Shown in pieces: positions 18,695 to 62,090 of a stretch of DNA of 64,000 bases. The notes beneath the pieces were generated by a model. It searched no databases. It was not told where the DNA came from and worked only from the letters and a program-made list of their open reading frames with translations. This DNA comes from an uncultured delta proteobacterium (GTDB lineage Bacteria; Desulfobacterota; Desulfobaccia; Desulfobaccales; 0-14-0-80-60-11): contig CAWETI010000003.1 of assembly GCA_963812015.1 (NCBI GenBank), forward strand, positions 704,001-768,000, in the 5' to 3' direction. Both the position numbers and the translations under genes were made by a program. Each line of letters starts with the position of its first letter. Position 1 is the stretch's first letter.

Positions 18695-18789
18695 CAAGAA
18701 GATCATATATTAACCTCTGACCCAGCCTCGCCCCAGTAACCCCTCAGTCAAAGCGTTAGAACGCCGCAGGAAGCGTGTGACGCTTTTTT
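18695..18789 (+). repeat. cassette-boundary repeat R0 (half palindrome plus 'zeta' arm)
   Basis: AAGAAGATCATATATTAACCTCTGACCC..GAAGCGTGTG..TTTTT; homologous to 33886-34000 and 61996-62090. Confidence 0.8.
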
Positions 18790-19471
18790 AAGGCCTATCT
18801 AAGGGTGGGCCATGGCCATAATTCGGCCGGGGTCAAGTGACCCCACGGACGCGGTTGCGGGTCCCGGACCAGCCGGATTTTTGCTTCAAAATTTTTGGGC
18901 CGTTCCCATCATGGGGGGTGTCTGCTGTTCCTGCCCATGCGAACGAAAAAAGACTCGATCAGTTAGACCTATTTCACTATGCAAACCATATCCGCAACTC
19001 TTTGGAATTTTTGATAAGTCTTGATAGTGGCAAGATATCTGGCTATGACCTGCCTCTCTTCGATCAATTACTCTAAAATAACTTGTGGATTATTTTTTGG
19101 GGGGTAGGTTATTCAGAAGCAAAAATTAGGGATGTCCTAATATAAAATTAAGATTATTTTTGAAATAATTGCGCATAAATTTCTCATGGCCTAAGCTATG
19201 CTCCGCCAGGATCACTGGCTTGACTAAAAAAAGCCGAATTTTCTCACTCAAATTGGTCCAAAAAAAGGGGCAGTTCCAAAAAGGGAGCGGAATCTTGGGC
19301 ACGAGTATGAGATTAAACTGCTTAGATTCATTAATGAAATTTTTTTTCGCCTGAATGCGCCGATCGAAAGCATTTTTGGGGTTAAACCATCAAGGGCCGC
19401 ATATACCGACCTAACACGCCCCGGAGGATACGGTGGCGGGGTCGGCGGGGGTCGGCATGGGGAGGGTTTGA

Positions 19472-20689
19472 TTGAAAAAATGGGCCGTCAACGCCGGGTT
19501 GATAATTCTCAGCATAATGGTGGTGATCACCGGCCTAGAGATGGCCCTTCGATTCACCTCATGCCGCTACCTGCTAACCCGAAACCGCCATCTCCGCTAT
19601 TACTACCATGCCGATCCAGTCAAAGGCTTTGACATTTCCCCCAGTATCAAGCCCAGGCGTGTTTCCGTGGACTACCGGGTGGAGTTCGACATCTGGTCCA
19701 ACGAGCTGGGGTGTTTTGATGAGCCTTACCATGGAGAAAAATCATTCATCCTACTAGTGGGTGATAGTTTCACCCACAGCTTCGCGCCCTTCTCGGATAA
19801 ATGGGGGACCCAGGTAGAAAAGTTGCTGGGCTACCGGGTATTGAAATGCGGGGTTACCGGATATGGGACCTATCAGGAACTTTTGAAGGCTAAAGAGATT
19901 ATCGCCAAGGTCAAAAATCGGCCGCAGCTCATCATCGTGGGCTATTTTTGGAATGACCTTAGCGACGATTACTCCTTCCCCGATCTCACCGTAGTCGATG
20001 GCTTCCTGGTGGAGTCCGGCAAATATAAGGACCCCAAGACTAATGAACTCTTAACGGAAAAATTGACCAAAAGATATACCCTGTGGGAAAAGCTGTTCGG
20101 CGGCGCCTACCCCTTAAATGTGGGCGAGATGATCAGGTACTACCTGGATCAGCATTTCATTGTCATGAACCTGGTGAATGATGCTTTGGCGAGTGTCTCT
20201 CCAGGCCGGCAAAAATATACCCGCCCCGATGAATTTATAGCGTTCGAACCCGAGTCCAAAAATCGGAAGATCTGGCAGCAGCACTTACAGAACGTAGCCG
20301 CATTTAAAGACCTGGCCGTGGCCAATCAGGCCAACCTGCTGATGGTGCTGATCCCCACCAACACCCAGGTCTATCCCTTCCTGGGGGCACACCGGGGTGA
20401 TGATCTAGAAGGTCCTAACAGGATTATGGCGCAGTTCCTGACTGCCCAGGGCATTGATTTTATAGATTTACTCCCCCTCATGAGAACCTATGCCAGTGAA
20501 ACGCCGCGCCGGGCCCTGAACCCGGAAAAGGACCTGTACTGGCGGCATAATTCTCACTGGAGCATCAGAGGCAATCACCTGGCTGGCATGCTGGTGTCCC
20601 GCTATATCCTGGAACACCGGTTGGTGGAGGCGCCGGAACGGGAGGCCAGACTCAGGGAAATAGAGGCTAAATTGCAAGCCTGGCGCTAA
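19472..20689 (+). CDS. SGNH/GDSL hydrolase-like (AlgX/AlgJ-type) membrane-anchored protein
   Basis: N-terminal TM, LLVGDSFT, GYGT.QE, FWND, HWSIRGNH. Confidence 0.8.
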   Translation: MKKWAVNAGLIILSIMVVITGLEMALRFTSCRYLLTRNRHLRYYYHADPVKGFDISPSIKPRRVSVDYRVEFDIWSNELGCFDEPYHGEKSFILLVGDSFTHSFAPFSDKWGTQVEKLLGYRVLKCGVTGYGTYQELLKAKEIIAKVKNRPQLIIVGYFWNDLSDDYSFPDLTVVDGFLVESGKYKDPKTNELLTEKLTKRYTLWEKLFGGAYPLNVGEMIRYYLDQHFIVMNLVNDALASVSPGRQKYTRPDEFIAFEPESKNRKIWQQHLQNVAAFKDLAVANQANLLMVLIPTNTQVYPFLGAHRGDDLEGPNRIMAQFLTAQGIDFIDLLPLMRTYASETPRRALNPEKDLYWRHNSHWSIRGNHLAGMLVSRYILEHRLVEAPEREARLREIEAKLQAWR

Positions 20690-20706
20690 GAGCAACGTTG
20701 ACCTGC

Positions 20707-20773
20707 CTGCCATAATACCGGATTACTCACTTGTGGCCAACCCAAACTACTCGGGTACGATATGGCGATCATA
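20707..20773 (+). repeat. cassette-boundary repeat R1 (interrupted by an intron fragment)
   Basis: CTGCCATAAT..TTACTCAC, then CGATATGGCGATCATA identical to 26132-26147. Confidence 0.75.
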
Positions 20774-20882
20774 GTACGCCACGAACGCACGTAGAGTGCG
20801 GTGCCTTGCAGGAGATGAGGGTTAGGCCCCTTGGAACCGGTCTGCAGAGACAGGTTCAAACCGCCTTAAGCTGCACTGGTTT
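20774..20882 (+). mobile_element. 5' fragment of a group II intron related to the one at 36025-37872
   Basis: GTACGCCACGAACGCACG...GAGATGAGGG..GGTCTGCAG.GACAGGTT..AAACCGCCTTAAGCTGC aligns with the reverse complement of 37765-37872. Confidence 0.88.
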
Positions 20883-21028
20883 CACTGATGCACACCGAAG
20901 GCTGTGGCCCTCTGATCAGCCACCGCAGATAACCCTTTCCGGAATCTCTCACCACTCCAGAACGATACACATCTGCAAGCTGTTTTCTTGACATCTTTCT
21001 CTAAATATGCAATAAATTAATATCCTCC

Positions 21029-21343: not shown

Positions 21344-21613
21344 ATATCCCTCCACTCGCCTTTCGTCTTTCAGATCAATAACCAATAAAAGCCATATATA
21401 TCAGTAAGTTATACATCATCAAGGGCACGGCATTTCCGCATTGGGGGCAGCGACTTCAGTCCCAGAACAATATCCATATTCGAACGGCCAATATGGATAT
21501 TCCTGAATCACGGACCATGCTTCATAAAGGAGAAATGATAAGGCAACCACGCCAAACGCACCGTGGCCCCCGATGCAGTTTTTGGGCCGCAATGTTTATA
21601 TAAGGAGTACCCA

Positions 21614-22219: not shown

Positions 22220-22474
22220 AAACTCCTCTTCCTGGGAGCTGCGGGAACGAGCCTTAAGCCTGCCCGTTTCCCGATAGGTCCGGCCCTGGGACCCAAACTG
22301 ACCTGGCCCCCCAAAACTGGTCCACATTTTATATTAGATGATGGCGCATTGGAGGGATGCAGGTGCACGACCAGGAAACGTTATCCATTGGAGCAGATAA
22401 ATGGAGTGGTGTCGCAGAAAATATCCCGAACATCTCCAACAACCCGGTTCGAAATTAGATGAAGGAGTGCGGTT

Positions 22475-23743
22475 ATGAGTATTTTGAAACTCGTCAATAA
22501 GCCTAAACAGTTCGAGGACTTCATTTCAAAAAATGGGACGGCTGACATCTTCCAAAAAGTGTATGAATTGGAAGCTGTCCTACAGGAGAGTACCCCTAAA
22601 TATATGGATGGGCTGGGACTTCAGATTCTTTCCCCCGCGGGGCCTCGGGTAAGAATCAAGGAAAAAGACAACCATGACCATGAAGTAATTATGTTGGCGT
22701 CGAATTCCTACCTGTCGTTGACCACGCATCCGAGAGTAATTGCCGCTTGCAAAGCGGCGTGTGACGCATACGGGTTTGGAATGGGTGCTTCTCCCCTGCT
22801 TGCAGGGACAAGCGTCCTGCACCGGCAATTGGAAAAACTCATAACAGAGTTCTATGAAGCCGAAGATGCCATGATCTTTCCCTGCGGGTACTCGGGCAAT
22901 GTCGGCATTATATCAGCTCTATGTGGATCAGGTGATGTGGTCCTGACCGATGCAGCCAATCACGCCTCGATTTTTGATGGGTGTAAGTTGTCAGGGGCTG
23001 AAATCAAGGTGTTTCTTCACCGCAATATAGATCATCTGGAGAAAACTCTTAAGAATCTACCCGAATCCCAGAAAGGCCGTCTTATTGTCACATGTGGAGT
23101 CTTTTCCATGAATGGCGATGTGGCTCCGCTTGATCAGATTGTTGAGTTGGCGCAGCGCTACAATGCACGAGTCATGATAGATGAGGCTCATGCCGTGGGA
23201 GTCGTCGGCCCGACGGGAAGAGGCACACCGGAGAAGTTCAATTGCATGAACCGGGTGGACATCATTTTTGGCACACTGAGCAAAGCACCTGGGGCCATCG
23301 GCGGCTATTGTGCGGGTACCGCATCCCTGATTCGCTATCTTCGATATTATGCACGCCCCTATTTCTTCTCCACCAGTGGTCCCGCTCCTATCATGGCGGG
23401 CCTGATTGAAGTATTTAAACTCATGAAGGAAGATGCCGCCGGCCGGGATAGATTATGGGACAATATTCGCTATATGCTGGCGGGCCTGAAAAGGCTTGGA
23501 TTCGATACCGGCGACACGGAATCCGCCATCATACCGATTATGATCGGGGACGAAGGCAAGCTCGCAAATCTTCACAATGACCTTCGTCACCAAGGTGTTT
23601 TTACTAACCTCGTCACGTATCCTGCCGTTAGACGCAAAGAATGCAGGTTACGGGTGAGTATTATGAACTCGCTGACCAGTGAAGAAATGGACAGGGCGCT
23701 GGGTATATTTGCAGAACTGGGGCGGGAATATGGTGTTATTTGA
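22475..23743 (+). CDS. PLP-dependent alpha-oxoamine synthase (serine palmitoyltransferase/BioF-like)
   Basis: SNSYLSL, NHASIFDG, GVFSMNGD, DEAHA, GTLSKA. Confidence 0.88.
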   Translation: MSILKLVNKPKQFEDFISKNGTADIFQKVYELEAVLQESTPKYMDGLGLQILSPAGPRVRIKEKDNHDHEVIMLASNSYLSLTTHPRVIAACKAACDAYGFGMGASPLLAGTSVLHRQLEKLITEFYEAEDAMIFPCGYSGNVGIISALCGSGDVVLTDAANHASIFDGCKLSGAEIKVFLHRNIDHLEKTLKNLPESQKGRLIVTCGVFSMNGDVAPLDQIVELAQRYNARVMIDEAHAVGVVGPTGRGTPEKFNCMNRVDIIFGTLSKAPGAIGGYCAGTASLIRYLRYYARPYFFSTSGPAPIMAGLIEVFKLMKEDAAGRDRLWDNIRYMLAGLKRLGFDTGDTESAIIPIMIGDEGKLANLHNDLRHQGVFTNLVTYPAVRRKECRLRVSIMNSLTSEEMDRALGIFAELGREYGVI

Positions 23744-23893
23744 TGAAATATCCCTTCATGACAGGATTGGTAGGATTCATAGGATTATACAGGTTCATTA
23801 CTATTAAAATAGTCAACATCAAAATGTCTACTAATAAAGGTTGCAAGATACAAGAGCATGTGGGCTTAATTCGATCAGGGGAGTTTTGAGGCC

Positions 23894-25474
23894 ATGCGCT
23901 CTTTGCTGGTATTTCCCGAATTTCCCCTTTCCTTCTGGAGTTTCCGAAAATCTTGCCGAATCATGGGAAAAGAGGCGGTTCAACCACCATTGGGTCTGCT
24001 GACGGTGGCCGCCTTACTGCCCTCAGAATGGGAACTGCGTCTGGCCGATCTCAATACCAGAAGCCTGACGGAGGAGGATTGGCAGTGGGCCGATCTGATC
24101 TTGATATCGGCGATGTACATTCAGAGGGAGGGCTTGTTGGCCCTGGTGAAAGAAGCCAAGCACCGTGGAAAAATCGTCGTAGTGGGAGGACCCTATCCCA
24201 CTTCACTTCCTGAGGCAGCCCTGGAGGCGGGATGTGATTTTGTGGTACGAGGCGAGGGCGAGAATACGATTCCCCTGCTCCTGGAGGCGATGCGAGGCGG
24301 CCAGACCGGGGTGATCGAAAACCACGAGAAGCCGGATATTACAACTTCGCCAATCCCGCGCCTTGATCTGCTGGGGCTGGCGGATTACCAGGAACTGACA
24401 ATTCAGACTTCCCGTGGATGCCCTTTTGATTGCGAATTTTGCGATGTGGTGAACCTCTTGGGAAGAAAACCCCGTTACAAGACCCCGCAGCAGGTCTTAG
24501 CCGAACTGGAGACCCTCTACCGCCTCGGGGCCGAAGGCATGGTGTTCATCTGCGACGATAACTTCATCGGGAGCAAGAAGCACGCCCGGGCCCTCCTGCA
24601 AGAACTCACCCCCTGGTCGAAGAATCGGGGCGAGCCCTTCGTCTTCAATACGCAGGCCTCGGTTAACCTGGGGCAAGATCCGGAAATGATCGACCTCATG
24701 ACCAAGGCCAACCTGAAGGAAGTCTTTATCGGGATCGAGTCTCCGGATGAGAAGGTGCTTGAAACCAGCCGCAAATATCACAACATCCAGAATCCGCTCC
24801 TGGAATCTCTCAACAATATCAAGCAGCAAGGTATAATGGTTATAGGCAGTTTCATTATCGGCCTTGACGGGGAAACGAAAGGGGCCGGCCAGAGAATCTG
24901 CTCATTCATGGAACAGACTGCCATACCGATGGCTATGCTTGGTGTCCTTCAGGCCCCGCCGCATACCAGCCTGTGGAATCGACTGGAGAGAGAAGGGAGG
25001 CTGCGCCGGGATGTCGGAAACGACGGGGGAACCTTCTCAGCGATAAACTACGAACCTGATCGACCGGAAGCTGAGATCATGCAGGAATACGCCGATGCCT
25101 GGGATTATCTGTATGAACCATCCCGTTATTTGGCGAGGGCCTACCGCTATTATCTGGCTATGCGACCGGCTTGCCGGGATAAAGCGATGGCAGCAGAGGG
25201 ACCCCTGCGCCGGGAAAACGTCCCCGACCGGGGTATGATTTGGCGTCGGTCGATCCGGGCTATTATCACAATTTTCTGGCAGCAAGGGGTCCGTGCGTCG
25301 TACCGGCGTCAATTCTGGACCCAGTTGATCGGGATGGGGTGGCAAAACCCGAGCAGATTAGAGCAATATCTCACGGCCTGCGTCATGGGAGAGGATCTTT
25401 CCTATATGCGGCAGGTTGTGCGGGAAAAGGTCACGGCTATCATCAAGGAGCTGGGAATAGGGGTTCCCGCTTGA
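23894..25474 (+). CDS. B12-binding class B radical SAM protein (HpnP/DUF4070-like)
   Basis: PPLGLLTVAALLP, GGPYPT, SRGCPFDCEFC, DDNFIG, GIES. Confidence 0.88.
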   Translation: MRSLLVFPEFPLSFWSFRKSCRIMGKEAVQPPLGLLTVAALLPSEWELRLADLNTRSLTEEDWQWADLILISAMYIQREGLLALVKEAKHRGKIVVVGGPYPTSLPEAALEAGCDFVVRGEGENTIPLLLEAMRGGQTGVIENHEKPDITTSPIPRLDLLGLADYQELTIQTSRGCPFDCEFCDVVNLLGRKPRYKTPQQVLAELETLYRLGAEGMVFICDDNFIGSKKHARALLQELTPWSKNRGEPFVFNTQASVNLGQDPEMIDLMTKANLKEVFIGIESPDEKVLETSRKYHNIQNPLLESLNNIKQQGIMVIGSFIIGLDGETKGAGQRICSFMEQTAIPMAMLGVLQAPPHTSLWNRLEREGRLRRDVGNDGGTFSAINYEPDRPEAEIMQEYADAWDYLYEPSRYLARAYRYYLAMRPACRDKAMAAEGPLRRENVPDRGMIWRRSIRAIITIFWQQGVRASYRRQFWTQLIGMGWQNPSRLEQYLTACVMGEDLSYMRQVVREKVTAIIKELGIGVPA

Positions 25475-25890: not shown

Positions 25891-26060
25891 AGTCGTTCAA
25901 ATTTGAGGCTTGAGAGGGCACTTTACCAAGGGAATTTCAACTCTGGCGACGCCGGTAGAGGCATGTAATTTTCCGCCTTAAAGACGAACATGTTGCAGTT
26001 GAGCGATATGGCGGGACTCCTATGAAGCCCCCTTTGTTTCGAACCCTCGTCCTGTTCCTG

Positions 26061-26203
26061 AGCATGGCCTGCATCTAATGCCTTAAAGCGGGCCAGCCTT
26101 AAGTCCGGAACCCTGACCGTATCCCTTGTTGCGATATGGCGATCATATCTTCATCTCTCTGGAATTTTTGAGAAGCTTTGCTAGTGGCAAGTTATGTGGC
26201 ACC
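26061..26203 (+). repeat. cassette-boundary repeat R2 (intron-free twin of R3)
   Basis: Near-identical to 35951-36024 joined to 37873-37936; central CGATATGGCGATCATATCT at 26132-26150. Confidence 0.92.
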
Positions 26204-28112: not shown

Positions 28113-28140
28113 GATAATGTCTCCTTGATTCACTCAAACG

Positions 28141-33847: not shown

Positions 33848-34000
33848 CTGCTCTATCTGGCTCCCATATCCCAATATAAAAGTATCAATAAGAAGATCAT
33901 ATATTGACCTCTGACCCAACGTCGCCTTTCTTCTTCTACGCTATGGAGAACCCCTTGGTCGAAGCGTGATCACGCCGTAGAAGCGTGTAGGCGCTTTTTT
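33848..34000 (+). repeat. cassette-boundary repeat R12 (zeta arm)
   Basis: AAGAAGATCATATATTGACCTCTGACCC..GTCGAAGCGT..GAAGCGTGT..TTTTTT, as at 18695 and 62000. Confidence 0.75.
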
Positions 34001-34406
34001 AGAGCCATTGCGGGGGTCTATCCCTCGGCTTATCCCCCCGACAAAAATCGGTTTGAAATTCTCGGTCCTGGGTCCCATCACCCCGGGTGTGTCTTTTGCC
34101 GGGTTCTCCCCGGGAAACAAAAACGGTATTGGCGAAAATTTTGATATGGCATCCAAGGCAGGCATAACGAGTAGGGGGGAGGGAGTCCCACTCTCCGGGT
34201 TTCTGTTCTTCGACTTTCACCCTGGGCAGGAATCCCAGGCACGGGTCCCCCAGGCCAGGGGCGTAGCGGGGGGAGGCAGGGGTAGGCGGCGGCTTCATGG
34301 CCGATGCTATATCGTGAGGAAAAGCCGCTGCCCCCCATGATTTGTGGTTATGCGTTCTTTTCCGGCAGAATGCACTTTTGGTCGTTATTTGTGGTAGAAT
34401 CTTGCT

Positions 34407-35675: not shown

Positions 35676-36024
35676 GGTTCCAGTTTAATGGAAAAAGGGA
35701 CATAGCCCAACTGCATAGTGGAGGTTAATGGAGAGGTTCCGGTATGCATATTACCATTGCTAAATGGCCCTGAAACGCCCCCAGAAGGCTTGAAGAGCAC
35801 CAACCCTTACTTCTGGCCATTAGTCGGTTGGCTTGCGTTGAAATTTGGGCCGAAAAAAGGACCGTACGTTGCTGTTTTTGACCATCGCCGCCATCGACCT
35901 GAACGCTTCCTATGAGGCTTCCTTTGTTTAGAGCCACTACCCTGCTATTAAGCATGGCCTGCATCTAATGCCTTAAAGCGGGCCAGCCTTAAGTCTGGAA
36001 CCCTGACCGTATCCCTCGTTGCGA

Positions 36025-37872
36025 GTCGAGTAGCGCAGGGGAATCTCACCCCCACGCCCTCACAGATCCGGACGTGAACCTCTCAGCTCATCCGGCTCCT
36101 CTTATCCAGCCGCCGGCCGCACTCCCAGTCGCCAGTGAGCGAATAAATTCGACTCACGCCGGGCAATGCGTCCTAACCAATGGGTTGACTGACGCTGATG
36201 GCCACGCAGCTTCTTAAACTTACGCATGGCCCAACGGGTCAGAGCGCGATTCAGTTGGCGCAAAATCGGGTAAAGTGCAGACTTGTAGTAGCTGCCATAG
36301 TAGTTAATCTAGCCCCGAAGGACTGGATTGAACATCCGGGACAAGTCGTCGAGAGCCTTATCGCTCCTCAGGTGGAGTCGCCAACTACGCATGGTGCGGC
36401 GCATCGTCTTTGCGGCTTTATCGCTCACTGCCGGGCTGAAGCTGATGAAGAACTTGCCCCAGCGATTCTTCGATCTCCGGGGACGAAACGTGAATCCCAG
36501 AAAATCAAACTTCTCGTTGAGGTAGTGGCCTCTCCGATCATCATCCTTGCAATAGACTATCTTGGTCTTTTCAGGATGAAGCTCCAGTTTGCATTGAGCC
36601 AGCCTTCCGGCAATCGCCTTCCTCAATGCCCCAGCTTCCGATTCTGTCTGGCAGTGGACCACCACATCATCGGCATATCTCGCAAAAGGATTCTGTGGAT
36701 AAGTCTTCCGCATCCATTCATCAAAAGCATAGCGCAGGAACAGGTTGGCGAGCAGAGGGCTGATCACCCCGCCTTGCGGCGTGCCCTTCTGCCGGAGCAC
36801 TAAAGTCCCTTCAGCAAGTTGGGCTGGGGCGGTAAGCCACCTTTCGATGTAGAGCAGCATCCATGAACAGTCGGTGTGCTTACGCACCGCCCGCATGAGA
36901 AGGTCATGGTCCAGGTTGTCAAAGAATCCCTTGATATCCAAATCGATCACCCAGTCGTAGCGCCAGCACCTTTTCCGGGTTACTCCAACGGCTTCAATCG
37001 CCGACTTCCCATGTCGATATCCATAGGAGTCTGGATGAAAGCATGGCTCCACCAACGGTTCCAGGTAAATCTTGACTACCATCTGGGCAATCCGATCTAA
37101 TACCGTCGGGATTCCCAAACTTCTCTGGCCGCCACCGGCCTTGGGTATGGTTACCGTACGCACTGGTGGCGGGAAATAGCTCCCCGAGGACATGAGATTC
37201 CAGACCTTGTAAAGGTTGTTCTTCAACCCCTTCTCAAAATCTGCAATCGACTCCGTGTCTACTCCGGCCGCTCCCTGGTTTGCTTTTACCCTTTGAAACG
37301 CCTTCCAGACCACCCATTTTGAAATCTCAAACGGCTTTGCTTTATTCACCGGTTCCTCCCATTTCTGGTTGACCAAGCCATAAAGCTGAATGAGACAACC
37401 CCTTCACTCCATCCCCATTACGGGACTTCTTCGCTACTACGGGTTGTTCCGCCCCTGTGCCCCGCCTCGGTACTCTCACTCTCATGGGTCCTCCACTTGA
37501 GTTTCTCCCTTCACATCGGAGCGACAGGTTCCCACGTTCCACGCAAGAGCCTGAGTCAAGATCATGCCACCTTCATGCCGGACACCACCCAAGCAATAAG
37601 CAGGCTCCCCTTGGGCTTATACTGGGACCACCATACCCCCCAGTTTTGACGTCGTCCTTATGATTTCGACACGTCATCAGTGGTTCGCTTGCGCTCATCT
37701 TCTTGACCCATACCTGACGCAGTTGCTCTGCGCCTTTTCCTTAACGCTCACCACCCTGACTCTTAACCAGCGCAGCTTAAGGCGGTTTGGAACCTGTCCC
37801 TGCAGACCGATTCCGAGGGGCCTACCCTCATCTCTTGCGCAACACCGCACTCAGCGTGCGTTCGTGGCGCAC
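36025..37872 (-). mobile_element. group II intron (RmInt1-like, class D-type), 1848 nt, inserted in repeat R3
   Basis: 5' GTGCG at 37872 and 3' ..CTACTCGAC at 36025. Domain V GAGCCGGATGAGCTGAGAGGTTCACGTCCGGATC. Removing the intron restores the sequence of R2. Confidence 0.95.
36102..37376 (-). pseudogene. ltrA: group II intron RT/maturase with premature TAG (36309-36311) in domain X
   Basis: GAAGVD, LGIPTV.DR, GTPQGG, RYADD. LRG-TAG-INYYG replaces conserved RGWINYY; the frame continues to TAA at 36102-36104. No endonuclease domain. Confidence 0.88.
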
Positions 37873-38074
37873 TATGGCGATCATATCTTCATCTCTCTGG
37901 AATTTTTGAGAAGCTTTGCTAGTGGCAAGCTAGTGGCCTCTTCCTAAATACTTCTTAGAGAATGCCCTTTGGAAAAAATTATGTGCAAATTTACAGAGTA
38001 TATGGAGAATCTTAATCTTAAGAAAAGCTTTAAGAATAATTACCCTATATATTGAACTGTAAAGGAGAAACACC

Positions 38075-38670: not shown

Positions 38671-38783
38671 CTGCTATTTATGTGCCCATCAAGGAGACTT
38701 AGAAGGTTTTCGCTATACAGATCATATCTTCAACTATTAAGCATTTCGGAGAATGGGCTGATAGTGGCAAGTTATGCGGCACC
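38671..38783 (+). repeat. cassette-boundary repeat R4
   Basis: CTGCTAT.., GCTATACAGATCATATCTTCA, ..TAGTGGCAAGTTATGCGGCACC (right arm as in R2). Confidence 0.8.
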
Positions 38784-50060: not shown

Positions 50061-50078
50061 GGCCGCTGCTTCCTCCGC

Positions 50079-50900: not shown

Positions 50901-51100
50901 ACCCCATGATGTGCCTCTTTAATATTGGCTCTTAACAGCGCCGGTTCGTGGGCAGCAAGTGATTTTCCCTATCTCTCCTGGCGGCGCAAAACGGCCTACA
51001 AGGGTGCGCCACCAAATACATCTTCGCGTCTTATGATTGAGGCTGAGCTAAACCTTATATCAAATGCCTGGTCGGCGCAGCTGGGTAAATGTGACGCTAG

Positions 51101-51158
51101 CTGCTATGATTCGACACTTATCACGAAGCCAAAACCTTTCCATATCCAGTCCATATCT
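51101..51158 (+). repeat. cassette-boundary repeat R5 (alpha left arm)
   Basis: CTGCTATGATTCGACACTTATCACGAAGCCAAAACC..CCATATCCAGTCCATATCT. Confidence 0.85.
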
Positions 51159-51256
51159 ATACTTCTTGGCCTGAAAAACTCCTGCCGTTCCCGCCGGTAA
51201 CCTGGGGTTCCCCTATCACCGACATCTTAAATCTTCCTCTCCACAGATGTCCGTGC

Positions 51257-51324
51257 CAGATATGAAGATCATATCTGCAATTTCTCCGACGCATTCGATA
51301 ATTGCTGGTCCTGGCAAGTTATCA
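51257..51324 (+). repeat. cassette-boundary repeat R6 (perfect palindrome plus gamma arm)
   Basis: CAGATATG-aagat-CATATCTG, CAATTTCTCCGACGCATTCGATAATTGC..GGCAAGTTATC. Confidence 0.85.
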
Positions 51325-51622
51325 ACTGTTTCCATTTTTAATTCCCGCCTGAAAAAAAAAATGGCCATCGCCGATCCTGTCTGAAGCGCACCTTTGACTA
51401 AGGAAATGTCAAGCAGAAAAGGACCGCGGCCGTTCCCGTAACGCTAGGCAATCGCTCTAAGGGAAATTTCTGTAGAACTTTATCAATTTAAACCCACCTG
51501 GTATATCCTTAGCGAATGGCCGGACCCCGTTGCCACACCTTTCGAGGTGCTTATATTAATAGAAATTGGATTAGTTCAACAAGCGGAGTGGGGTGGCCAT
51601 GCGACTCGGGGCGAGATCCTCA

Positions 51623-52351
51623 ATGAAACCATACCTTGGAGTGTTGTTTTTCCTGTGCTATCCGGGGATATTCTTTTCCCCAGGCTTTGCACTTTGCGAC
51701 GGCACTCAGTCTGATCTGGACCACAAATTAGCCGCGGGGGAGATCATTGTCTCTTCTAAAGAAGTTCCTGGAAAATCCCTCAAATGCGCCGAGATGGTGG
51801 GAGTTGTTGATGCCCCACCGGAGATCGTTTGGCAGGTGATCACTGATGTTAATAATGCTAAGAATTTCATGCCACGAATTCGTAATAGTATGGCCGTTGC
51901 TCCGGAGAAAATTCCCGTGATTTTGCAAAGTAGAGCGACCCGAGCTGAAGAGGTGGAGCAATTACTCGGCCCTATCCCAGCAGACCCGGATAGTTATCGC
52001 ATTCCTGGGGGAACATATACCGTGTATTCATATAGCAATGTTGATTTACCGTGGCCTCTTAATAACAGATGGCATATCACCAAAGGGTTAAGGGATGAGA
52101 CTCGGGCTGCCCAACATTGCTATCACAACTCGTGGTCTCTCGTAACCGGTAACATCCGAGAAAATGCTGGTGAATGGATTTTGGAACCATTTGGCTCTGC
52201 TAAAACAAAGGCTACCTACAGGCTTTGTACCGATCCCGGTGGCGTCATTCCACAGTTCCTTGTCACGCAAGGTACTGATACAACCATGCCCCAAATCATT
52301 AAAGCGGTCAGGGAACGGGCTGCTAAGCTTTTGGGACAGCCATTATCTTGA
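51623..52351 (+). CDS. SRPBCC/START-domain exported protein
   Basis: VDAPPEIVWQVITD...FMP, LPWPL.NRW, GEWILEP, DPGG.IP. Confidence 0.8.
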   Translation: MKPYLGVLFFLCYPGIFFSPGFALCDGTQSDLDHKLAAGEIIVSSKEVPGKSLKCAEMVGVVDAPPEIVWQVITDVNNAKNFMPRIRNSMAVAPEKIPVILQSRATRAEEVEQLLGPIPADPDSYRIPGGTYTVYSYSNVDLPWPLNNRWHITKGLRDETRAAQHCYHNSWSLVTGNIRENAGEWILEPFGSAKTKATYRLCTDPGGVIPQFLVTQGTDTTMPQIIKAVRERAAKLLGQPLS

Positions 52352-52414
52352 AATTCTAAAAGGCTCAATAAGTTAAAAGGAACGGTATTGAGGTACTGAA
52401 GAAGCTCAAGGCAT

Positions 52415-52520
52415 CTGCTATGATCCAAAAATTATCACGAAGCCCAAAACCTCACTTATCCAGATCATATCTGCAATTTCCCCGACGCATTCGATAATTG
52501 CTGCTCCCTGGCAAGCTATA
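52415..52520 (+). repeat. cassette-boundary repeat R7 (complete alpha + gamma)
   Basis: CTGCTATGATCC..TTATCACGAAGCCCAAAACC..CAGATCATATCTGCAATTTC..GACGCATTCGATAATTGC..TGGCAAG. Confidence 0.9.
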
Positions 52521-52575
52521 TTGAATTCCAATATCTAATAAATCTTTTGGGTCCTCCTTAGCGGATCCTGCCTGC

Positions 52576-53220
52576 TTAATCTTCCCGCTTACCCCATCTC
52601 GGCAAAAACCGGGGCACCCGGCGGCAATACTCCTCGTAGGCCGCGCCGTAGCGCTCCAGGAGTTCCTTCTCCTCTAACCGGGCAATGATGCAAATTCCCG
52701 GCAACCAGAGGGCTGCCACCACGTAGGCGGCCGGGTAGTTGGCAATCAGGGCATAGCCCCAGATGAGAAGGACGATCTGGACATAGCGGGGGTGACGCAT
52801 CCGGGTGTAAATGCCGCCGGTAATTAACCCGATCGGATACTTATTCGGGGCCAATTCGGGCAGCCCCAGCATTGTGCTCAGGGCCAGGTACCGGTGTAAC
52901 AACACCCACAGCCAGATGGCGGCCACTTCAGCCAAGACCCCCAAGGCTATCAGGAAGTAGTTCGTCCCGAACTCCACGGCCAGCAGGCTCTTCCGGACCT
53001 GAAAAAGCCCCCCTCCTCCCATGCCCATGACCGTCCATACCAGGCCGTAGGTTAAGGCCGGGCCCAGCCGCCGCCAAAAGTGGATAAAAGGGTGAATTAC
53101 CAGCCAATGCAGCAGCGTCGGTGGCAATGTGACCACCAGGACCAAGGCGATATAATAACGGATCGCGTCCACTTTTTTCTTCTCATCAAAAGGTGCGGGG
53201 TCACTTCCAGCCCACCTCAT
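52576..53220 (-). CDS. isoprenylcysteine carboxyl methyltransferase/PEMT-family membrane protein
   Basis: LITGGIY..MRHPRY, EEKEL.ERYG..YEEY.RRVPRFLP; start uncertain. Confidence 0.88.
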   Translation of the reverse strand: MRWAGSDPAPFDEKKKVDAIRYYIALVLVVTLPPTLLHWLVIHPFIHFWRRLGPALTYGLVWTVMGMGGGGLFQVRKSLLAVEFGTNYFLIALGVLAEVAAIWLWVLLHRYLALSTMLGLPELAPNKYPIGLITGGIYTRMRHPRYVQIVLLIWGYALIANYPAAYVVAALWLPGICIIARLEEKELLERYGAAYEEYCRRVPRFLPRWGKRED

Positions 53221-53223
53221 TAT

Positions 53224-53289
53224 TTATATCTACATCATATCTGGAATTTTTCCCACACAAGCGATAATTCCCGATGCTGGCAAGTTATC
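53224..53289 (+). repeat. cassette-boundary repeat R8 (delta arm)
   Basis: ATCATATCTGGAATTTTTCCCAC..CGATAATT..CTGGCAAGTTATC. Confidence 0.8.
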
Positions 53290-53321
53290 AAAAGATAGGT
53301 GATTTTCTTTCACCAGATTTA

Positions 53322-59083: not shown

Positions 59084-59137
59084 TATACACCGGAGCAGGT
59101 CATTGGGAAGCTGCGGGAAGCCGAAGTGGCGTTATCT
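59084..59137 (+). mobile_element. tiny IS3-family orfA remnant
   Basis: YTPEQVIGKLREAEVALS resembles an IS3-family OrfA N-terminus; it stops at repeat R9. Confidence 0.55.
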
Positions 59138-59198
59138 GCTATGATCCGACACTTATCACGGAGCCAAAAAGCTCGCATATAGAACATATCTTTAAATT
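59136..59198 (+). repeat. cassette-boundary repeat R9 (alpha arm)
   Basis: CTGCTATGATCCGACACTTATCACGGAGCCAAAA..GCATATAGAACATATCT. Confidence 0.85.
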
Positions 59199-59273
59199 TT
59201 CGCCACCCCCCCAAGCCCAGAGTCGCCCATTAATTTCGTCCTTGCACTCGTCAGCTTATGTCTCCCTGCCCCG

Positions 59274-59819
59274 TCACTTCGGGTTCGCCGCCAGGTAGTC
59301 GTTGATGAACTGGTCGACTTGGTCCCCCACTAAATTTCGGATTTGAGTTATGTTGGTTATCTTGCATGTTCCTGCGTATCCCGTCGTATGCCATACCACA
59401 CCAGGGATTTTAAAACCACTTTCGATGGCAACTTTCTTCTTTAATTGCACCTTGATTGAATACGCACAGAAAGTAGAGCCAGGCTTGGTGACGGCATTTA
59501 CGTTCACATAAAGGTACGGCATCCCCGGCGTCCCTTGGCTTTCCTTCTCCGTGAGAACCCTGGCTCCGGCCTTGCGTAGTCTCATCTCGACGTCCGTCTG
59601 TATCTGGTCTCTGATCAAGCCCAAGCGCTCGATTTCTGGCTTAAGGTTCTCGACCAAAACGTGCACCCCTTTCAGCCCGACAAGAGCCTTTTGCTCATCA
59701 GTAAGGGCATGAGAGACAGCCGGAAGCAGCAAAAGTACCACCACCAGGGCCATTACCCTCTTTTCCAGGCTCAGGATGCATTTTTTGTCGGTACTTATGG
59801 TAGAATTTTGTTCAGCCAT
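59274..59819 (-). CDS. hypothetical exported protein
   Basis: GGAGG RBS before MAEQNST; internal signal-like MALVVVLLLLPAVSHA; C-terminal VDQFINDYLAANPK. Confidence 0.7.
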   Translation of the reverse strand: MAEQNSTISTDKKCILSLEKRVMALVVVLLLLPAVSHALTDEQKALVGLKGVHVLVENLKPEIERLGLIRDQIQTDVEMRLRKAGARVLTEKESQGTPGMPYLYVNVNAVTKPGSTFCAYSIKVQLKKKVAIESGFKIPGVVWHTTGYAGTCKITNITQIRNLVGDQVDQFINDYLAANPK

Positions 59820-59899
59820 GACATGAACCTCCCCGACAGGTTTGGTTGTGGTTAGGGCCGGTCCGGTGATGCCCATGCTCCAGGCCGGCCTGCTTATTT
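59813..59899 (+). ncRNA. putative SymR-like antisense RNA (copy 3)
   Basis: TGGTAGAAT -10 at 59798-59806; homologous to 34407-34492. Confidence 0.55.
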
Positions 59900-60070
59900 C
59901 CTGGTTCGCTTCAAATACTCTTCCACGTCTGCCCACCTGATACGCACGGCTCGCCCCAGCTTATGATGAGGCAATACACCTTCACGAACCCGCCGCCATA
60001 TAGTGTCTTTTGATAGGCCGAGCTTTTCGGCTATTTCCTTGACCGAAAAAAACTCTCGTTCTCCCGTCAT
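59894..60070 (-). CDS. excisionase-family HTH protein (58 aa, below the ORF-track cutoff)
   Basis: Own translation MTGEREFFSVKEIAEKLGLSKDTIWRRVREGVLPHHKLGRAVRIRWADVEEYLKRTRK. Confidence 0.85.
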   Translation of the reverse strand: MTGEREFFSVKEIAEKLGLSKDTIWRRVREGVLPHHKLGRAVRIRWADVEEYLKRTRK

Positions 60071-60447
60071 TCCATTACCCCCAAACCATTCGAGTGATTA
60101 TTTTAATTATAAAATACTTTGATATGCATGTAAGTGCAGCTGTATGCAATATTAGGGATAAAATATATAGGATTTTGCAAATTGCATCGGCTCTATCCTT
60201 TGCCCCGCCATGCCCAGGCTGCCCATTTATTGCCGCGACTGTTATCGCTGGCGGATGGCTATCCTACCCCTCATCGGATTGCTTAATGAAGGACTTTTTC
60301 CGGGTAGTCGATGGTCTTGTTCCAAACCGATATGGATGGATGATCTGCGCGCCAAAAATGATCCAAAGATTATGCTGAAGTAGTGTCACGAAGGGAGGCA
60401 AAGAGATCTGGCGTAGCTGATATGTGATGGCTATAAACATTTACTAG

Positions 60448-60550
60448 CTGCTATGATCCGACACTTATCACAGGGTCCAAAACCTTCCATATTCAGACGA
60501 TATCTGGAATTTTTACCACTTAGATGATAAGAGATTAGAATGGAAGCTCG
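60448..60550 (+). repeat. cassette-boundary repeat R10 (alpha + delta)
   Basis: CTGCTATGATCCGACACTTATCAC..AAAACCTTCCATATTCAGACGATATCTGGAATTTTTACCAC..TGATAA. Confidence 0.85.
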
Positions 60551-60583
60551 TGAAGAGGTACCTCCTGGATGGAGCAAGGCGGC

Positions 60584-60748
60584 ATGGGTAATAAGCAGAT
60601 AATTGGTATATCGGTGGGCGCGTTGGCGGGATTTCTGATTGGATATCTTGGCCGCTGTGCGGGAGGCACAGCTTGAAGACTGACCTCCAATCCCTGGTCA
60701 GGGATGATCGTAGGCGCGCTGGTGGGATTTCTGGTAACCCGTCATTAG
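60584..60748 (+). CDS. small membrane selenoprotein, DUF6132-like (TGA 60674-60676 = Sec31)
   Basis: Own translation MGNKQIIGISVGALAGFLIGYLGRCAGGTA-TGA-RLTSNPWSGMIVGALVGFLVTRH; hairpin ATCCCT-ggtc-AGGGAT about 13 nt after the TGA. Confidence 0.75.
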
Positions 60749-60822
60749 TTAGTCAAAGTTTCGCTTGATTTCTGCTAAGGCTTGCAACACCAAAGACTGG
60801 TATCCAGATGGGGATGCAAAGA

Positions 60823-61860
60823 ATGAAAAGATTTGGAATTTTGTTAATCGCAGCAATGATGGGTTTGGTGCTTGCCTGTGGCAGCCAGGAAGCGAAAGCT
60901 CCCGCCAAACCGGCTGCCCTGCCGGGAAAGGCCGAGAAGGCAGCGCCCCAAGCCCTACCGGCGCAGGTCGCGCGTATGGAGATTCACTCGTTTCCGTCCA
61001 TGACGTTGACGGATCAGCAATTCCTGACCGGTCGCAAGGAAGGCAAACCGGTCACCATCGCGGGCGAGCTTCGCCTGCCTCGCCCGGGAAATGATCGCCT
61101 ACCGGTAGTCGTCCTTATACATGGCTCGGGTGGAGTGTCAGGTTCTGTCCTGGATTGGGAACAGGATCTCAATGCAATGGGCGTGGCAACCTTCGTCCTC
61201 GACAGCTTCACCGGGCGCGGCATCGTGAATACCAACTACGATCAGTCACAACTTGGGCGCTTAGCGATGATCGTCGATGTCTATCGCGCCCTCGATGTCC
61301 TGGCGAAACACCCAAGGATCGATCCCACCCGGATTGCCCTCATGGGGTTTTCGCGGGGTGGCCAGGCCGCGCTCTACGCGAGCCTGAAGCGATTTCAGCG
61401 CCTGCACGGTCCTGTGGGTCAGGAGTTTGCAGCCTACATCGTCTTCTACCCGGATTGTAACACGGCATACCGCGACGACGAGGACGTGGCGGACAAGCCG
61501 ATCCGGATCTTTCATGGCAGCGCCGATGACTATGACCCGATTGCGCCGTGTCAGGCCTATGTTGAGCGGCTGAAGGCGAAGGGCAAGAATGTCCAGCTGA
61601 TTGAATATGCCGGTGCAGGGCACAATTTCGATAATCGGGGGCTTAAGACGCCTCTAAAGCTTGAGAGAGCGCAGACGACCAGACGATGCGAATTGGCAGA
61701 GGCAGAGAATGGCATGATCGTCAATGTCAAAACCAAGCAGCCGTTCACCTACGCCGATCCTTGCGTGGAATATGGGCCGACGCTGGCTTATAACGAGAAG
61801 GCTTCTACCGAGGCTAGAAGGGCAGTCAAGGACTTCGTTACAACTACACTTAAGCTGTGA
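60823..61860 (+). CDS. dienelactone hydrolase-family alpha/beta hydrolase, lipoprotein
   Basis: Lipobox VLAC, HGSGG, GFSRGG nucleophile elbow, HGSADD, GHNFD. Confidence 0.9.
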   Translation: MKRFGILLIAAMMGLVLACGSQEAKAPAKPAALPGKAEKAAPQALPAQVARMEIHSFPSMTLTDQQFLTGRKEGKPVTIAGELRLPRPGNDRLPVVVLIHGSGGVSGSVLDWEQDLNAMGVATFVLDSFTGRGIVNTNYDQSQLGRLAMIVDVYRALDVLAKHPRIDPTRIALMGFSRGGQAALYASLKRFQRLHGPVGQEFAAYIVFYPDCNTAYRDDEDVADKPIRIFHGSADDYDPIAPCQAYVERLKAKGKNVQLIEYAGAGHNFDNRGLKTPLKLERAQTTRRCELAEAENGMIVNVKTKQPFTYADPCVEYGPTLAYNEKASTEARRAVKDFVTTTLKL

Positions 61861-61953
61861 CCCGAGTTTTCAGAATGATGGCCTGCCTGTTGAGGCGCGG
61901 AAATGAAATCGGCGCTTAACCTTCAGCAGCGGCGTTATCCGCATGAAAGATAA

Positions 61954-62090
61954 CTGCTATCTCTCCGCACCTCTCCTCCCGGCATTTGGCTTGCTGATAT
62001 GCTTACCATATTGACCGCTGACCAAACCTCGCCCCAGTAACCCCTCAGTCGAAGCGTTAGAACGCCACAGGAAGCGTGTGGCGGTTTTTT
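61954..62090 (+). repeat. cassette-boundary repeat R11 (zeta arm)
   Basis: CTGCTAT.., GATATG-cttac-CATATT, then GACCGCTGACC..CCTCGCCCCAGTAACCCCTCAGTCGAAGCGTTAGAACGCC.CAGGAAGCGTGTG, nearly identical to 18712-18789. Confidence 0.85.

What the first reader, a model, noticed from the sequence alone, without database searches (positions are those of the whole stretch)
18695..62090. Integron-like cargo array: ~13 co-oriented tripartite sites with a GATATG-N5-CATATC core divide the island into gene modules
Seen in sequence: related intergenic sites, all in the same orientation, at about 18695, 20707, 26061, 33848, 35951/37873, 38671, 51101, 51257, 52415, 53224, 59136, 60448 and 61954. A full site has three inverted-pair subsites: A (CTGCTATGATCCGACACTTATCAC), B (AGATATG-N5-CATATCT) and C (CGATAATTGC-N8-GCAAGTTATC). 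Several copies are partial or degenerate. The sites bracket functionally coherent modules of 0.7-12 kb in either gene orientation: SGNH | mlaC-SPT-radical SAM | kdp | DUF72 | lipocalin | oxidative-stress cluster | SRPBCC | ICMT | SLC5 kinase-GNAT | Xis-hypothetical | selenoprotein-hydrolase. None was seen in the host flanks. Inference: a site-specific recombination cassette system distinct from attC integrons and pdif modules. The recombinase is unknown; the tRNA integrase's att core does not resemble B, so the enzyme may act in trans.
Basis: partly seen in the sequence, partly recalled or inferred. Interest (0 to 1): 0.92.

Follow-up and report, generated by a model that had tools for sequence, protein, structure and literature searches.

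The report
Relics of a small recombinase transposon
The repeated sites between the island's genes are worn, gene-less copies and single ends of a one-kilobase jumping element that elsewhere carries its own Xer-like recombinase gene, so they are recombinase-linked scars rather than a proven integron-like gene-cassette system.

Summary
The repeats are real and far beyond chance. All copies in the window lie on the + strand between 18.7 and 62.1 kb, inside a tRNA-Arg island. The exact GATATG-N5-CATATC core is present only 2-3 times.

They are not special to this island. The genome holds about 82 copies on both large contigs, and most genomes of the genus have them.

I tested a lead from two earlier notes of this scan on other windows of this genome, and it held. 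A+B and B+C are the left and right ends of a ~1.05-kb element with imperfect terminal inverted repeats. Its only gene, on the opposite strand, encodes a Xer-like tyrosine recombinase. The recombinase is 80-100% identical across 21 loci in Desulfobacterota MAGs, each in a different context.

- Window copies are short (A-B-C) or long (A-B'-linker-B-C) MITE-like forms, single ends, and three B-like pieces fused to an unexplained terminator module (T).
- One copy is split by a group II intron.
- This genome's only cognate recombinase gene carries a stop codon.
- Copies are clustered and co-oriented: 31 of 31 neighbours within 5 kb.
- Ends of duplicated blocks fall on them about 25 times more often than chance.
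- Movement of gene modules as cassettes is not shown.
- Integron and pdif membership tests fail.

The parts
8828..8890 (.). Direct repeat of the 3' part of tRNA-Arg; left edge of the island that holds all the sites
   Evidence: 92% identical over 63 nt to 62871-62933 (family D9)
9019..10215 (+). Island integrase (398 aa). It is only a remote relative of the element's recombinase
   Evidence: PF00589 1e-25; 27% identity over 135 aa to the element's recombinase
18681..18827 (+). T-type copy: right half of B (GATCATAT) fused to a ~110-nt module that ends in a hairpin plus T run
   Evidence: nhmmer t profile 5e-43; alignment of 9 genome copies
18961..19043 (+). Single right end (B + C, ending TGGCAAG)
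   Evidence: bc profile 4e-18
20707..20881 (+). Degenerate A plus B (GATATGGCGATCATA), followed from 20770 by a 112-nt 5' fragment of a group II intron
   Evidence: Sequence read; 88% identity to intron positions 25-136. The ab/bc profiles did not detect it
26018..26201 (+). Right end with about 110 nt of extra upstream sequence (X), then B and C
   Evidence: bc profile 8e-19; 26018-26134 is 86% identical to 35908-36024 (D5)
33877..34022 (+). T-type copy
   Evidence: t profile 1e-33
35908..36024 (+). Left part (X) of a right-end copy that a group II intron split inside B
   Evidence: (D5)
36025..37870 (-). Group II intron with a reverse transcriptase/maturase ORF (36309-37376), inserted in B
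   Evidence: RF00029 and RF01999; RVT_1 1e-40
37863..37937 (+). Right part (B right half + C) of the split copy
   Evidence: bc profile 1e-17; 98% identical to 26135-26194 (D4)
38671..38781 (+). Short complete copy with a degenerate A (A'-B-C)
   Evidence: bc profile 1e-16; A' read
51091..51325 (+). Long MITE-like copy: A - B' - ~95-nt linker - B - C
   Evidence: ab 5e-21 and bc 3e-18, 76 nt apart. The same ab/bc pairing at gaps of 76-92 nt occurs at ten places in the genome, this one included
52406..52524 (+). Short MITE-like copy: A - B - C (about 120 nt)
   Evidence: Overlapping ab 9e-20 and bc 4e-15
53219..53291 (+). Single right end (B + C)
   Evidence: bc 3e-13
59126..59207 (+). Single left end (A + B')
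   Evidence: ab 9e-21
60442..60531 (+). Single left end (A + B') with a weak trace of C
   Evidence: ab 7e-21; bc E 0.29
61954..62129 (+). A''-B-T copy: CTGCTAT tip, GATATGCTTACCATAT, then module T
   Evidence: t profile 3e-42. The same A''-B-T arrangement is at C2:310970, 810076 and 1665386
62876..62954 (-). tRNA-Arg (CCT); right edge of the island

Best explanation
The sites are non-autonomous copies (MITE-like short and long forms, single left ends, single right ends) of a ~1.05-kb insertion-sequence-like element.

The autonomous form reads as follows:
- Left inverted repeat: TAnCTGCTATGAty.GAAACTTATCA (= A).
- Dyad B'.
- A hairpin.
- One gene on the opposite strand for a Xer-like tyrosine recombinase of about 290 aa.
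- Dyad B, just upstream of that gene's start.
- Right inverted repeat: GATAAGTTTC...TGGCAAGnTA (= C).

Shown: the architecture, the terminal inverted repeats, spread of the whole A-to-C unit into unrelated contexts in many Desulfobacterota genomes, and clustering and co-orientation in this genome.

Inferred:
- The recombinase excises the unit as a circle whose abutted tips form a core site, then integrates it into weakly similar targets.
- Resident ends are preferred targets, which would give co-oriented arrays in accessory DNA.
- The short form arose by deletion between B' and B.

In this genome the family is old and probably immobile. Its copies now act mainly as break and join points for rearrangements, and as landing pads for a group II intron and an IS110-type element.
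For: (1) Ends flank the recombinase gene. The C-terminal 143 aa of the broken recombinase gene next to an A+B copy (C2:302405-303407) matched 21 of 61 genomes of the family at E<=1e-20, with 73-100% identity over the aligned parts. In those loci A+B lies about 50 nt beyond the stop codon and B+C about 120 nt upstream of the ORF, at fixed distances. Both ends were detected in 7 of 25 loci and no end in 2 of 25.

(2) Wider sample. Of 21 loci with at least 80% identity, 8 had both ends, 9 had B+C only, 4 had A+B only and none had neither.

(3) The unit that moves. Copies in G041 (two) and G057 match L041 only over 1384/1388-2430. For 20 copies there are 20 different contexts beyond C and 16 beyond A.

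(4) Terminal inverted repeats. The left end against the reverse complement of the right end scores 29, against shuffles at 14.3 +/- 2.9; 0 of 1000 shuffles reach it.

(5) Enzyme. PF00589 at 5.5e-22. Best solved relatives are a XerC-like protein (4a8e, 1e-15), XerA and XerD.

(6) This genome. There are 82 elements, and 64 have a neighbour within 10 kb, against a random mean of 28 and maximum of 46. Neighbours share orientation in 31 of 31 cases within 5 kb and 48 of 52 within 15 kb.

(7) Other mobile DNA targets the copies. A group II intron sits in B at 37870, with a fragment at 20770. Seven short intron 3'-end remnants lie elsewhere in the genome; four lie within about 90-290 nt of bc hits listed, and two more lie within 90 nt of hits too weak for my E<=0.01 list. 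A 99.9%-identical IS110-type copy ends 41 nt from a B anchor, at the A tip.
Against: - No empty site was found, so excision, the exact ends and any target duplication are not shown. Only TA next to each tip carries information.
- Random transposition does not predict 31 of 31 co-orientation. My explanation, integration at resident ends, rests only on a weak likeness of right flanks to the left tip (3.67 against 2.76 +/- 0.11 matches, with non-independent copies). The left flanks show barely any likeness (3.34 against 3.02 +/- 0.18).
- Nearest copies differ by 15-30%, and the only cognate recombinase gene here has a stop codon. Activity cannot be tested in this genome.
- Three window sites (T type) have no counterpart next to any recombinase gene I fetched.
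- Four autonomous-type copies lack A and are joined at B' to another conserved block. So B' is sometimes a junction, which fits a recombination-site reading.
- The end profiles were built from this window and missed the ends of 16 of 18 more distant (<80%) relatives.
Confidence: 0.68

Rival explanations
1. A true cassette or translocatable-unit system. The recombinase, supplied in trans, recombines co-oriented copies at B or at the tips. Gene modules are excised as circles together with one copy and re-inserted at other copies, building co-oriented cargo arrays. This would resemble IS26 translocatable units or integron cassettes in logic.
For: - Strict local co-orientation, whatever the gene direction: 31 of 31 neighbours. 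The gene downstream of B+C runs the same way in 49 of 73 cases and the opposite way in 24 of 73.
- 16 of 148 ends of non-IS duplicated segments lie within 90 nt of a B anchor, against 0.42% at random.
- A 4.1-kb ArsP block (94% identical) ends exactly at CATATCG in B.
- A 1.5-kb block (99.7% identical) ends at CTGCTATGA, with unlike copies beyond it.
- The SRPBCC gene of G008 (91% identical) matches from TGGCAA to CTGCTAT, in different surroundings.
- The left and right halves of 23 complete copies are barely correlated: Mantel r 0.15, p 0.08, and 0 of 23 share a nearest neighbour.
- Other arrays carry paralogous cargo such as GDSL, MlaC-SPT, DUF72, katG and flavin reductase.
Against: - Break points lie at three different places in the site. 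A single crossover point is expected.
- In most duplicated blocks only one end touches a copy.
- Across 17 genomes of the genus the window's genes recur singly, not as site-bounded modules.
- Copies are old and the cognate recombinase gene is dead here.
- Homologous or illegitimate recombination at repeats could give the same enrichment.
- The half-site signal rests on 56-60 nt and is noisy.
Confidence: 0.2
2. A regulatory element. B and B' would be operator or enhancer sites, and the C end (TGGCAAG-N4-YYGCT) a sigma-54-type promoter of a large regulon.
For: - 21 of 69 right ends keep the GG-N10-GC spacing, against about 8% for GC at a fixed place.
- The downstream gene is co-directional in 49 of 73 cases.
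- B is a 17-bp dyad of the kind bound by dimeric regulators; this last point is from my own knowledge.
Against: - Only 1 of 7 window copies keeps the spacing.
- 24 of 73 copies face the 3' end of a convergent gene.
- The same sequences are the ends of a mobile unit that encodes a recombinase.
- TGGCAAG read on the other strand is a TTGCCA box upstream of the recombinase gene. That reading is my inference.
Confidence: 0.07

Closest known systems
Insertion sequences with their MITE derivatives (and solo ends)
   Same: - A ~1-kb unit with imperfect terminal inverted repeats and one gene for its own enzyme.
- Many gene-less 120-240-nt derivatives that keep both ends.
- Unrelated flanks at each copy.
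- A homopolymer (A8) early in the gene that puts the N-terminus out of frame in most copies. As I recall, some IS families use frameshift or slippage control in this way.
   Different: - The enzyme is a Xer-like tyrosine recombinase, not a DDE, DEDD, HUH or serine transposase.
- No target duplication was shown.
- Copies are co-oriented in arrays.
- Two searches of the paper library (listings and abstracts only) turned up no paper whose title or abstract start describes a bacterial ~1-kb tyrosine-recombinase IS with MITEs.
IS26 translocatable units / arrays of co-oriented IS26 with cargo between them
   Same: Co-oriented copies of one small element are interleaved with accessory genes. Block ends lie at the element's ends.
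   Different: IS26 uses a DDE transposase and a targeted conservative reaction; this comparison is recalled, not tested. Here no unit of 'one copy plus adjacent block' was seen twice with both ends at copies.
Integron attC cassette arrays
   Same: Both use a tyrosine recombinase, and both have repeated, co-oriented sites between accessory genes.
   Different: - No IntI-type gene or attI lies next to the array.
- The sites do not fold as single-strand hairpins (z 0.3-1.2).
- Modules reach 12 kb, hold several genes and run in both directions.
- The sites are dispersed genome-wide.
pdif modules / Xer-exploiting elements (IMEX)
   Same: The recombinase is of the Xer type.
   Different: - pdif modules are bounded by inversely oriented XerC/D sites and use the host XerCD; this is recalled.
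- Here the copies are co-oriented and the element carries its own recombinase.
- Likeness to the host dif site was not tested.
REPIN/RAYT systems
   Same: A dispersed short repeat family is tied to one enzyme gene that is present in one or a few copies per genome.
   Different: RAYTs are HUH Y1 enzymes, and REPINs are paired palindromes. The three weak Y1_Tnp matches in this genome lie well away from every repeat copy listed.

Membership tests
Integron | IntI-type integrase gene with attI and promoter directly beside the cassette array | tested here: not met
   The only PF00589 match in the window is the tRNA-island integrase at 9019-10215. Small recombinases beside other arrays score 63-78 bits on the integron-integrase model, whose cut-off is 265. 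The element's own recombinase best matches Xer structures; it was not run against NCBIfam.
Integron | attC sites that fold as imperfect single-strand hairpins | tested here: not met
   Two complete copies were folded as ssDNA on both strands. Energies were -6.9 to -9.2 kcal/mol and z-scores 0.28 to 1.15; 111 to 177 of 200 shuffles folded at least as well.
Integron | Cassettes are mostly single, promoterless, co-oriented ORFs | tested here: not met
   Blocks between sites run from 0.7 to about 12 kb. They hold operons (kdp, the katG cluster) and lie in both directions.
pdif modules | Modules flanked by inversely oriented XerC/XerD-binding dif-like sites | tested here: not met
   All window copies are on the + strand. 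Neighbours within 5 kb share orientation in 31 of 31 cases. Sequence likeness to dif was not tested.
Insertion sequence / MITE | Terminal inverted repeats | tested here: met
   Consensus left end against the reverse complement of the right end: score 29 against 14.3 +/- 2.9 for shuffles, 0 of 1000 reaching it.
Insertion sequence / MITE | Autonomous copy encodes the enzyme between the same ends that the short copies carry | tested here: met
   8 of 21 loci with at least 80% identity show both ends at fixed distances, 13 show one end and none shows neither.
Insertion sequence / MITE | Multiple copies in unrelated contexts | tested here: met
   82 elements in this genome. For 20 autonomous-type copies there are 20 contexts beyond C and 16 beyond A.
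Insertion sequence / MITE | Target-site duplication and empty-site polymorphism | tested here: inconclusive
   Only TA beside each tip carries information (1.2-1.3 bits). No empty site was found in relatives or in laid contigs.
Insertion sequence / MITE | Transposase of a recognised IS class (DDE, DEDD, HUH, serine) | tested here: not met
   The only domain at or above Pfam's own cut-off is Phage_integrase, PF00589. For this reason I file the element as a variant, not a member, of the known IS families.
Sigma-54 promoter | TGGCAC-N5-TTGC, that is GG-N10-GC spacing, upstream of a co-directional gene | tested here: inconclusive
   21 of 69 copies genome-wide and 1 of 7 in the window keep the spacing. 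The downstream gene is co-directional in 49 of 73 cases.

The most novel reading that the evidence does not exclude
Desulfobacterota carry an undescribed class of tyrosine-recombinase insertion sequence. Its gene-less copies would serve as docking and exchange points. With the recombinase supplied in trans from a rare autonomous copy, whole gene blocks lying between co-oriented copies would be excised with one copy and re-inserted at other copies. This would be an IS26-like or integron-like cargo-shuffling system built on a Xer-type enzyme, switched by slippage at an A8 tract.
Probability: 0.2. Interest if true: 0.8.

Novelty: new variant of a known kind. Interest (0 to 1): 0.55.

Why it matters
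If the reading holds, this is an insertion-sequence-like family whose only enzyme is a simple Xer-type tyrosine recombinase, complete with MITE-like offspring. That combination is missing from the usual IS classes as I recall them, and from the listings of my two paper searches.

Its copies make up a visible share of the intergenic DNA of accessory regions in a whole family of uncultured sulfate-reducer relatives. They mark where blocks have been joined and attract other mobile DNA.

For annotation, it explains dozens of 'recombination-like' sites in this genome in one stroke. It also warns against calling such arrays integron-like from co-orientation alone.

The scan had already met the same family on two other windows of this genome (e1-7687253, e1-7817862).

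Tried and rejected
- **Promoter-only reading.** Rejected because 24 of 73 right ends face a convergent gene and only 1 of 7 window copies keeps sigma-54 spacing.
- **Structured RNA.** Rfam at gathering score finds only the intron and the tRNA. At E<=1 nothing is found on 61900-62200 or 51050-52560.
- **REP/RAYT.** There are three weak Y1_Tnp matches, all well away from the repeat copies listed.
- **Orientation set by replication.** Orientation agrees with the local GC skew in 34 of 43 cases on C3 but only 15 of 39 on C2.
- **Small recombinases beside three other arrays as the missing enzyme.** These are 196-206 aa and hold the catalytic domain only. They are just 26-29% identical to the element's recombinase and 27% to each other. 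The 206-aa one sits in a 3.8-kb duplicated block that ends at a C tip. Its role is open.
- **The 220-aa ORF at 59274-59936, which occupies the recombinase's place after an A+B end.** It has no Pfam or NCBIfam match, and by eye it looks like a secreted protein. I took it for cargo.
- **Empty sites or modules in relatives.** Searches gave only single genes or repeat copies.
- **Public runs.** One run holds the stretch and is probably its source. All four laid runs are contigs. The joints at 51158>51296 and 52479>53278 carry other letters between their sides, so I read them as other copies of the repeat, not deletions. There is no usable evidence on excision.
- **BLAST of window copies against a full element.** It found only one of 14, so it was too insensitive. 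I relied on the profiles instead.
- **Module T next to recombinase genes in other genomes.** Not found in any fetched locus.

Full report
**1. The observation**

The window holds a tRNA-Arg(CCT) gene at 62876-62954 on the - strand. Its 3' part is repeated at 8828-8890 (92% over 63 nt, D9). A 398-aa integrase gene lies at 9019-10215. All the reported sites therefore lie inside one tRNA island of about 54 kb.

The repeats are real.
- The repeat finder groups 51097/52411/59132/60444 (A+B).
- It groups 18972/26129/37867/38708/51260/52456/53226 (B+C).
- It groups 18696/33890/61997 (a B half plus a ~110-nt module that I call T).
- The A motif is found 4 times at up to 3 mismatches, with 0 expected.
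- The exact GATATG-N5-CATATC core is rarer than the title suggests: 2 exact matches and 1 with one mismatch, against 0.10 expected.

Profiles built from the window copies give 14 hits at 13 places, all on the + strand, from 18681 to 62129.

Two 'sites' need correction. 35951 and 37873 are one copy split by a group II intron at 36025-~37870 on the - strand (Rfam RF00029 and RF01999; RT ORF). 20707 is a degenerate A plus B, followed by a 112-nt 5' fragment of the same intron family.

**2. The sites are not special to this island**

At E<=0.01 the same profiles find 115 hits in the 3.96-Mb genome. These reduce to 92 B-anchored sites, or 82 elements. They lie on both large contigs and in both orientations.

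A 2.3-kb query that spans three window copies matched 25 of 41 genomes, the window's own included. That covers 16 of 17 relatives in the genus, and two genomes of another family at 85% over 143 nt.

The copies are nevertheless far from random.
- 64 of 82 have a neighbour within 10 kb, against a random mean of 28 and a maximum of 46 in 1000 trials.
- Neighbours share orientation in 31 of 31 cases within 5 kb and 48 of 52 within 15 kb.
- By my tally of the distances, ten of thirteen clusters have a tyrosine-recombinase gene within about 10 kb.
- Other clusters carry paralogues of the window's cargo: GDSL, MlaC-SPT, DUF72, katG and flavin reductase.

**3. What the sites are**

Two earlier notes of this scan, on other windows of this genome (e1-7687253 and e1-7817862), read the same family as copies of a small element whose full form carries a Xer-like recombinase. 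I tested this claim.

In this genome a recombinase gene with one in-frame stop lies at C2:302405-303407, ending about 50 nt from an A+B copy. Its C-terminal 143 aa matched 21 of 61 genomes of the family at E<=1e-20, across 6 of 14 genera, with 73-100% identity over the aligned parts.

In those loci A+B lies just beyond the stop codon and B+C just upstream of the start, with the gene on the strand opposite to the repeats. Both ends were detected in 7 of 25 loci, one end in most others, and none in 2.

A scan of one genome per species found 56 loci in MAGs labelled Desulfobaccales, Syntrophobacterales, Desulfobacterales and others. Of the 21 loci with at least 80% identity, 8 had both ends, 9 had B+C only, 4 had A+B only and none had neither. 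Of the 18 more distant loci, 16 had no detectable end, which may reflect the limits of window-built profiles. The two sets of loci overlap and are not independent.

An alignment of 20 loci gives the anatomy, listed here from the A side to the C side of the element:
- TAnCTGCTATGAty.GAAACTTATCA (A).
- CCATATCCAGgAAATATC (B').
- A GC-rich hairpin.
- The stop codon of the recombinase gene, which runs on the opposite strand.
- Its start codon and ribosome-binding site.
- GATATaCAGAGCATATC (B).
- GATAAGTTTC...TGGCAAGnTA (C).

A and C are imperfect inverted repeats: score 29 against 14.3 +/- 2.9 for shuffles, with 0 of 1000 reaching it. Copies in two further genomes match only from A to C (positions 1384/1388-2430 of L041). 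For 20 copies there are 20 unrelated contexts beyond C and 16 beyond A. So the whole A-to-C unit, about 1.05 kb, is what spreads.

The protein has a Phage_integrase domain (5.5e-22) and is closest to solved XerC-like, XerA and XerD chains. It is only 26-29% identical to the island integrase and to the small recombinases beside other arrays.

**4. Reading the window copies**

| Window position | Form |
|---|---|
| 52406-52524 | short form, A-B-C |
| 38671-38781 | short form with a degenerate A |
| 51091-51325 | long form, A-B'-linker-B-C |
| 18961, 53219 | single right ends |
| 26018-26201 | right end with extra upstream sequence |
| 35908-36024 + 37863-37937 | right end with extra upstream sequence, split by the intron |
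| 59126, 60442 | single left ends |
| 18681, 33877, 61954 | T type |

The same ab/bc pairing, at gaps of 76-92 nt, occurs at ten places in the genome, the window's long form included.

In the long form, by eye, the linker resembles the stretches just inside the two ends of the full element, next to B' and next to B. This is as expected of an internal deletion. I did not score the resemblance.

The B of the short form has the left half of B' and the right half of B. This fits a deletion between them, but whether by the recombinase or by slippage cannot be told.

Module T is unexplained. There are nine copies in this genome; four have a CTGCTAT tip and a B-like dyad to their left, and each copy ends in a hairpin followed by a T run. 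Module T has no Rfam match, and it lies beside no recombinase gene that I fetched.

**5. Do the sites move gene modules?**

For:
- In a self-comparison of the genome, 16 of 148 ends of non-IS duplicated segments lie within 90 nt of a B anchor, against 0.42% of random places.
- A 4.1-kb ArsP block (94% identical) ends exactly in B.
- A 1.5-kb block (99.7% identical) ends at CTGCTATGA, with unlike copies beyond it.
- A 3.8-kb block and a 1.3-kb block end or start at TGGCAAG.
- The SRPBCC gene of G008 (91% identical) matches from the C tip to the A tip, in different surroundings.
- The two halves of 23 complete copies are barely correlated (Mantel r 0.15, p 0.08).

Against:
- The break points lie at three different places in the site.
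- The other end of most blocks touches no copy.
- Across 17 genomes of the genus the window's genes recur singly at 65-90% identity.
- Nearest copies differ by 15-30%.
- The only cognate recombinase gene here is broken.
- Rearrangement at dispersed repeats by host recombination would give the same enrichment.

I conclude that the copies are junction points of the mosaic. Cassette movement at them remains a minority reading, at about 0.2.

**6. Mechanism**

Shown: the ends, the enzyme class, spread of the unit, the non-autonomous copies, and the clustering and co-orientation.

Inferred:
- Excision gives a circle whose abutted tips (…TCATGGCAAG / CTGCTATGA…) form an inverted-repeat core site of the usual tyrosine-recombinase kind.
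- The circle integrates into weakly similar targets.

The flanks carry little information apart from TA next to each tip. Right flanks do resemble the left tip more than random DNA does (3.67 against 2.76 +/- 0.11 matches of 7). Left flanks barely do. This gives weak support to insertion beside resident ends, which would explain the co-oriented arrays.

**7. Rivals and membership**

A sigma-54 promoter reading has partial support: GG-N10-GC spacing in 21 of 69 copies. It fails in the window (1 of 7), and 24 of 73 copies face convergent genes.

Integron features fail. There is no IntI or attI. The sites do not fold as attC-like hairpins. The modules are multi-gene and run in both directions. 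The sites are dispersed. The inverse orientation of pdif sites is not met either.

IS/MITE features are met, except for the enzyme class and a target duplication, which is not shown.

**8. Novelty**

Two full-text searches gave no paper whose title or abstract start describes a bacterial ~1-kb tyrosine-recombinase element with MITE-like copies (listings and abstract starts only, no paper read). This is weak evidence of absence from print. The same family was already noted twice by this scan in this genome.

Noticed in passing
L068-L121 (recombinase loci of other genomes); in this genome C2:302405-303407: About 21 codons into the recombinase gene, 22 of 34 loci carry an A8 run. In most loci where my script found the ATG, reading from it then stops after about 38 codons. 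The rest of the protein continues in another frame. Three loci (L079, L095, L096) read through in frame, as ...NSQKNTIRAYG.... This looks like slippage or frameshift control, or on/off variation, of the recombinase. The pattern holds in both short-read and long-read assemblies, as I judge from the contig names.
   Followed up: partly
window 36025-37870 (-), 20770-20881 (+); genome C3:513028, 804568, 825145, 1009649; C2:792087, 1101049: A group II intron family homes into dyad B of the repeat, once in each orientation in the window. Short remnants of its 3' end lie elsewhere in the genome. Four lie about 90-290 nt from B+C copies in my E<=0.01 list. Two more lie within 90 nt of hits that were too weak for that list.
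   Followed up: partly
genome C3:449829-451549 and C3:890470-892189: Two 99.9%-identical copies of an IS110-type element. One ends 41 nt from a B anchor, at the A tip of a repeat copy. The transposase domains are PF01548 and PF02371.
   Followed up: partly
genome C3:996792-1000613 and C3:453858-457666 (L001, L002): A 3.8-kb block present twice at 94% identity. It holds a 206-aa recombinase with the catalytic domain only (98% identical copies) and three ORFs with no family match (162, 180/207 and 510 aa). It ends exactly at the TGGCAAG tip of a B+C copy and is followed by a repeat array.
   Followed up: partly
L069, L071, L074, L075 (four MAGs): In these loci the recombinase gene and its B+C end are joined at B' to another conserved block of at least 1.4 kb instead of A, while the DNA beyond C differs in each. 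The recombinase may have been taken up by a larger mobile element.
   Followed up: partly
window 18681-18827, 33877-34022, 61982-62129; genome C2:309390, 310970, 810076, 1625658, 1665386; C3:1838666: Module T is a ~110-nt conserved stretch ending in an intrinsic-terminator-like hairpin, always to the right of a B-like half site. It has no Rfam match. It could be a small RNA gene or the end of a sister element.
   Followed up: partly
genome C2:1181126-1182582: A frame-shifted tyrosine recombinase gene of another type follows directly on the B' of an A+B copy (C2:1180965). This may be a further mobile element inserted at B'. By recall it resembles the integrase genes found with IS91-type elements; I did not test that.
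   Followed up: no
window 22436-23922 vs genome C3:1474596-1476075: The serine-palmitoyltransferase-like gene is 91% identical to a paralogue in another array. The neighbouring mlaC genes are only 75-78% identical. This suggests a recent gene-sized exchange with no repeat copy at its ends.
   Followed up: no
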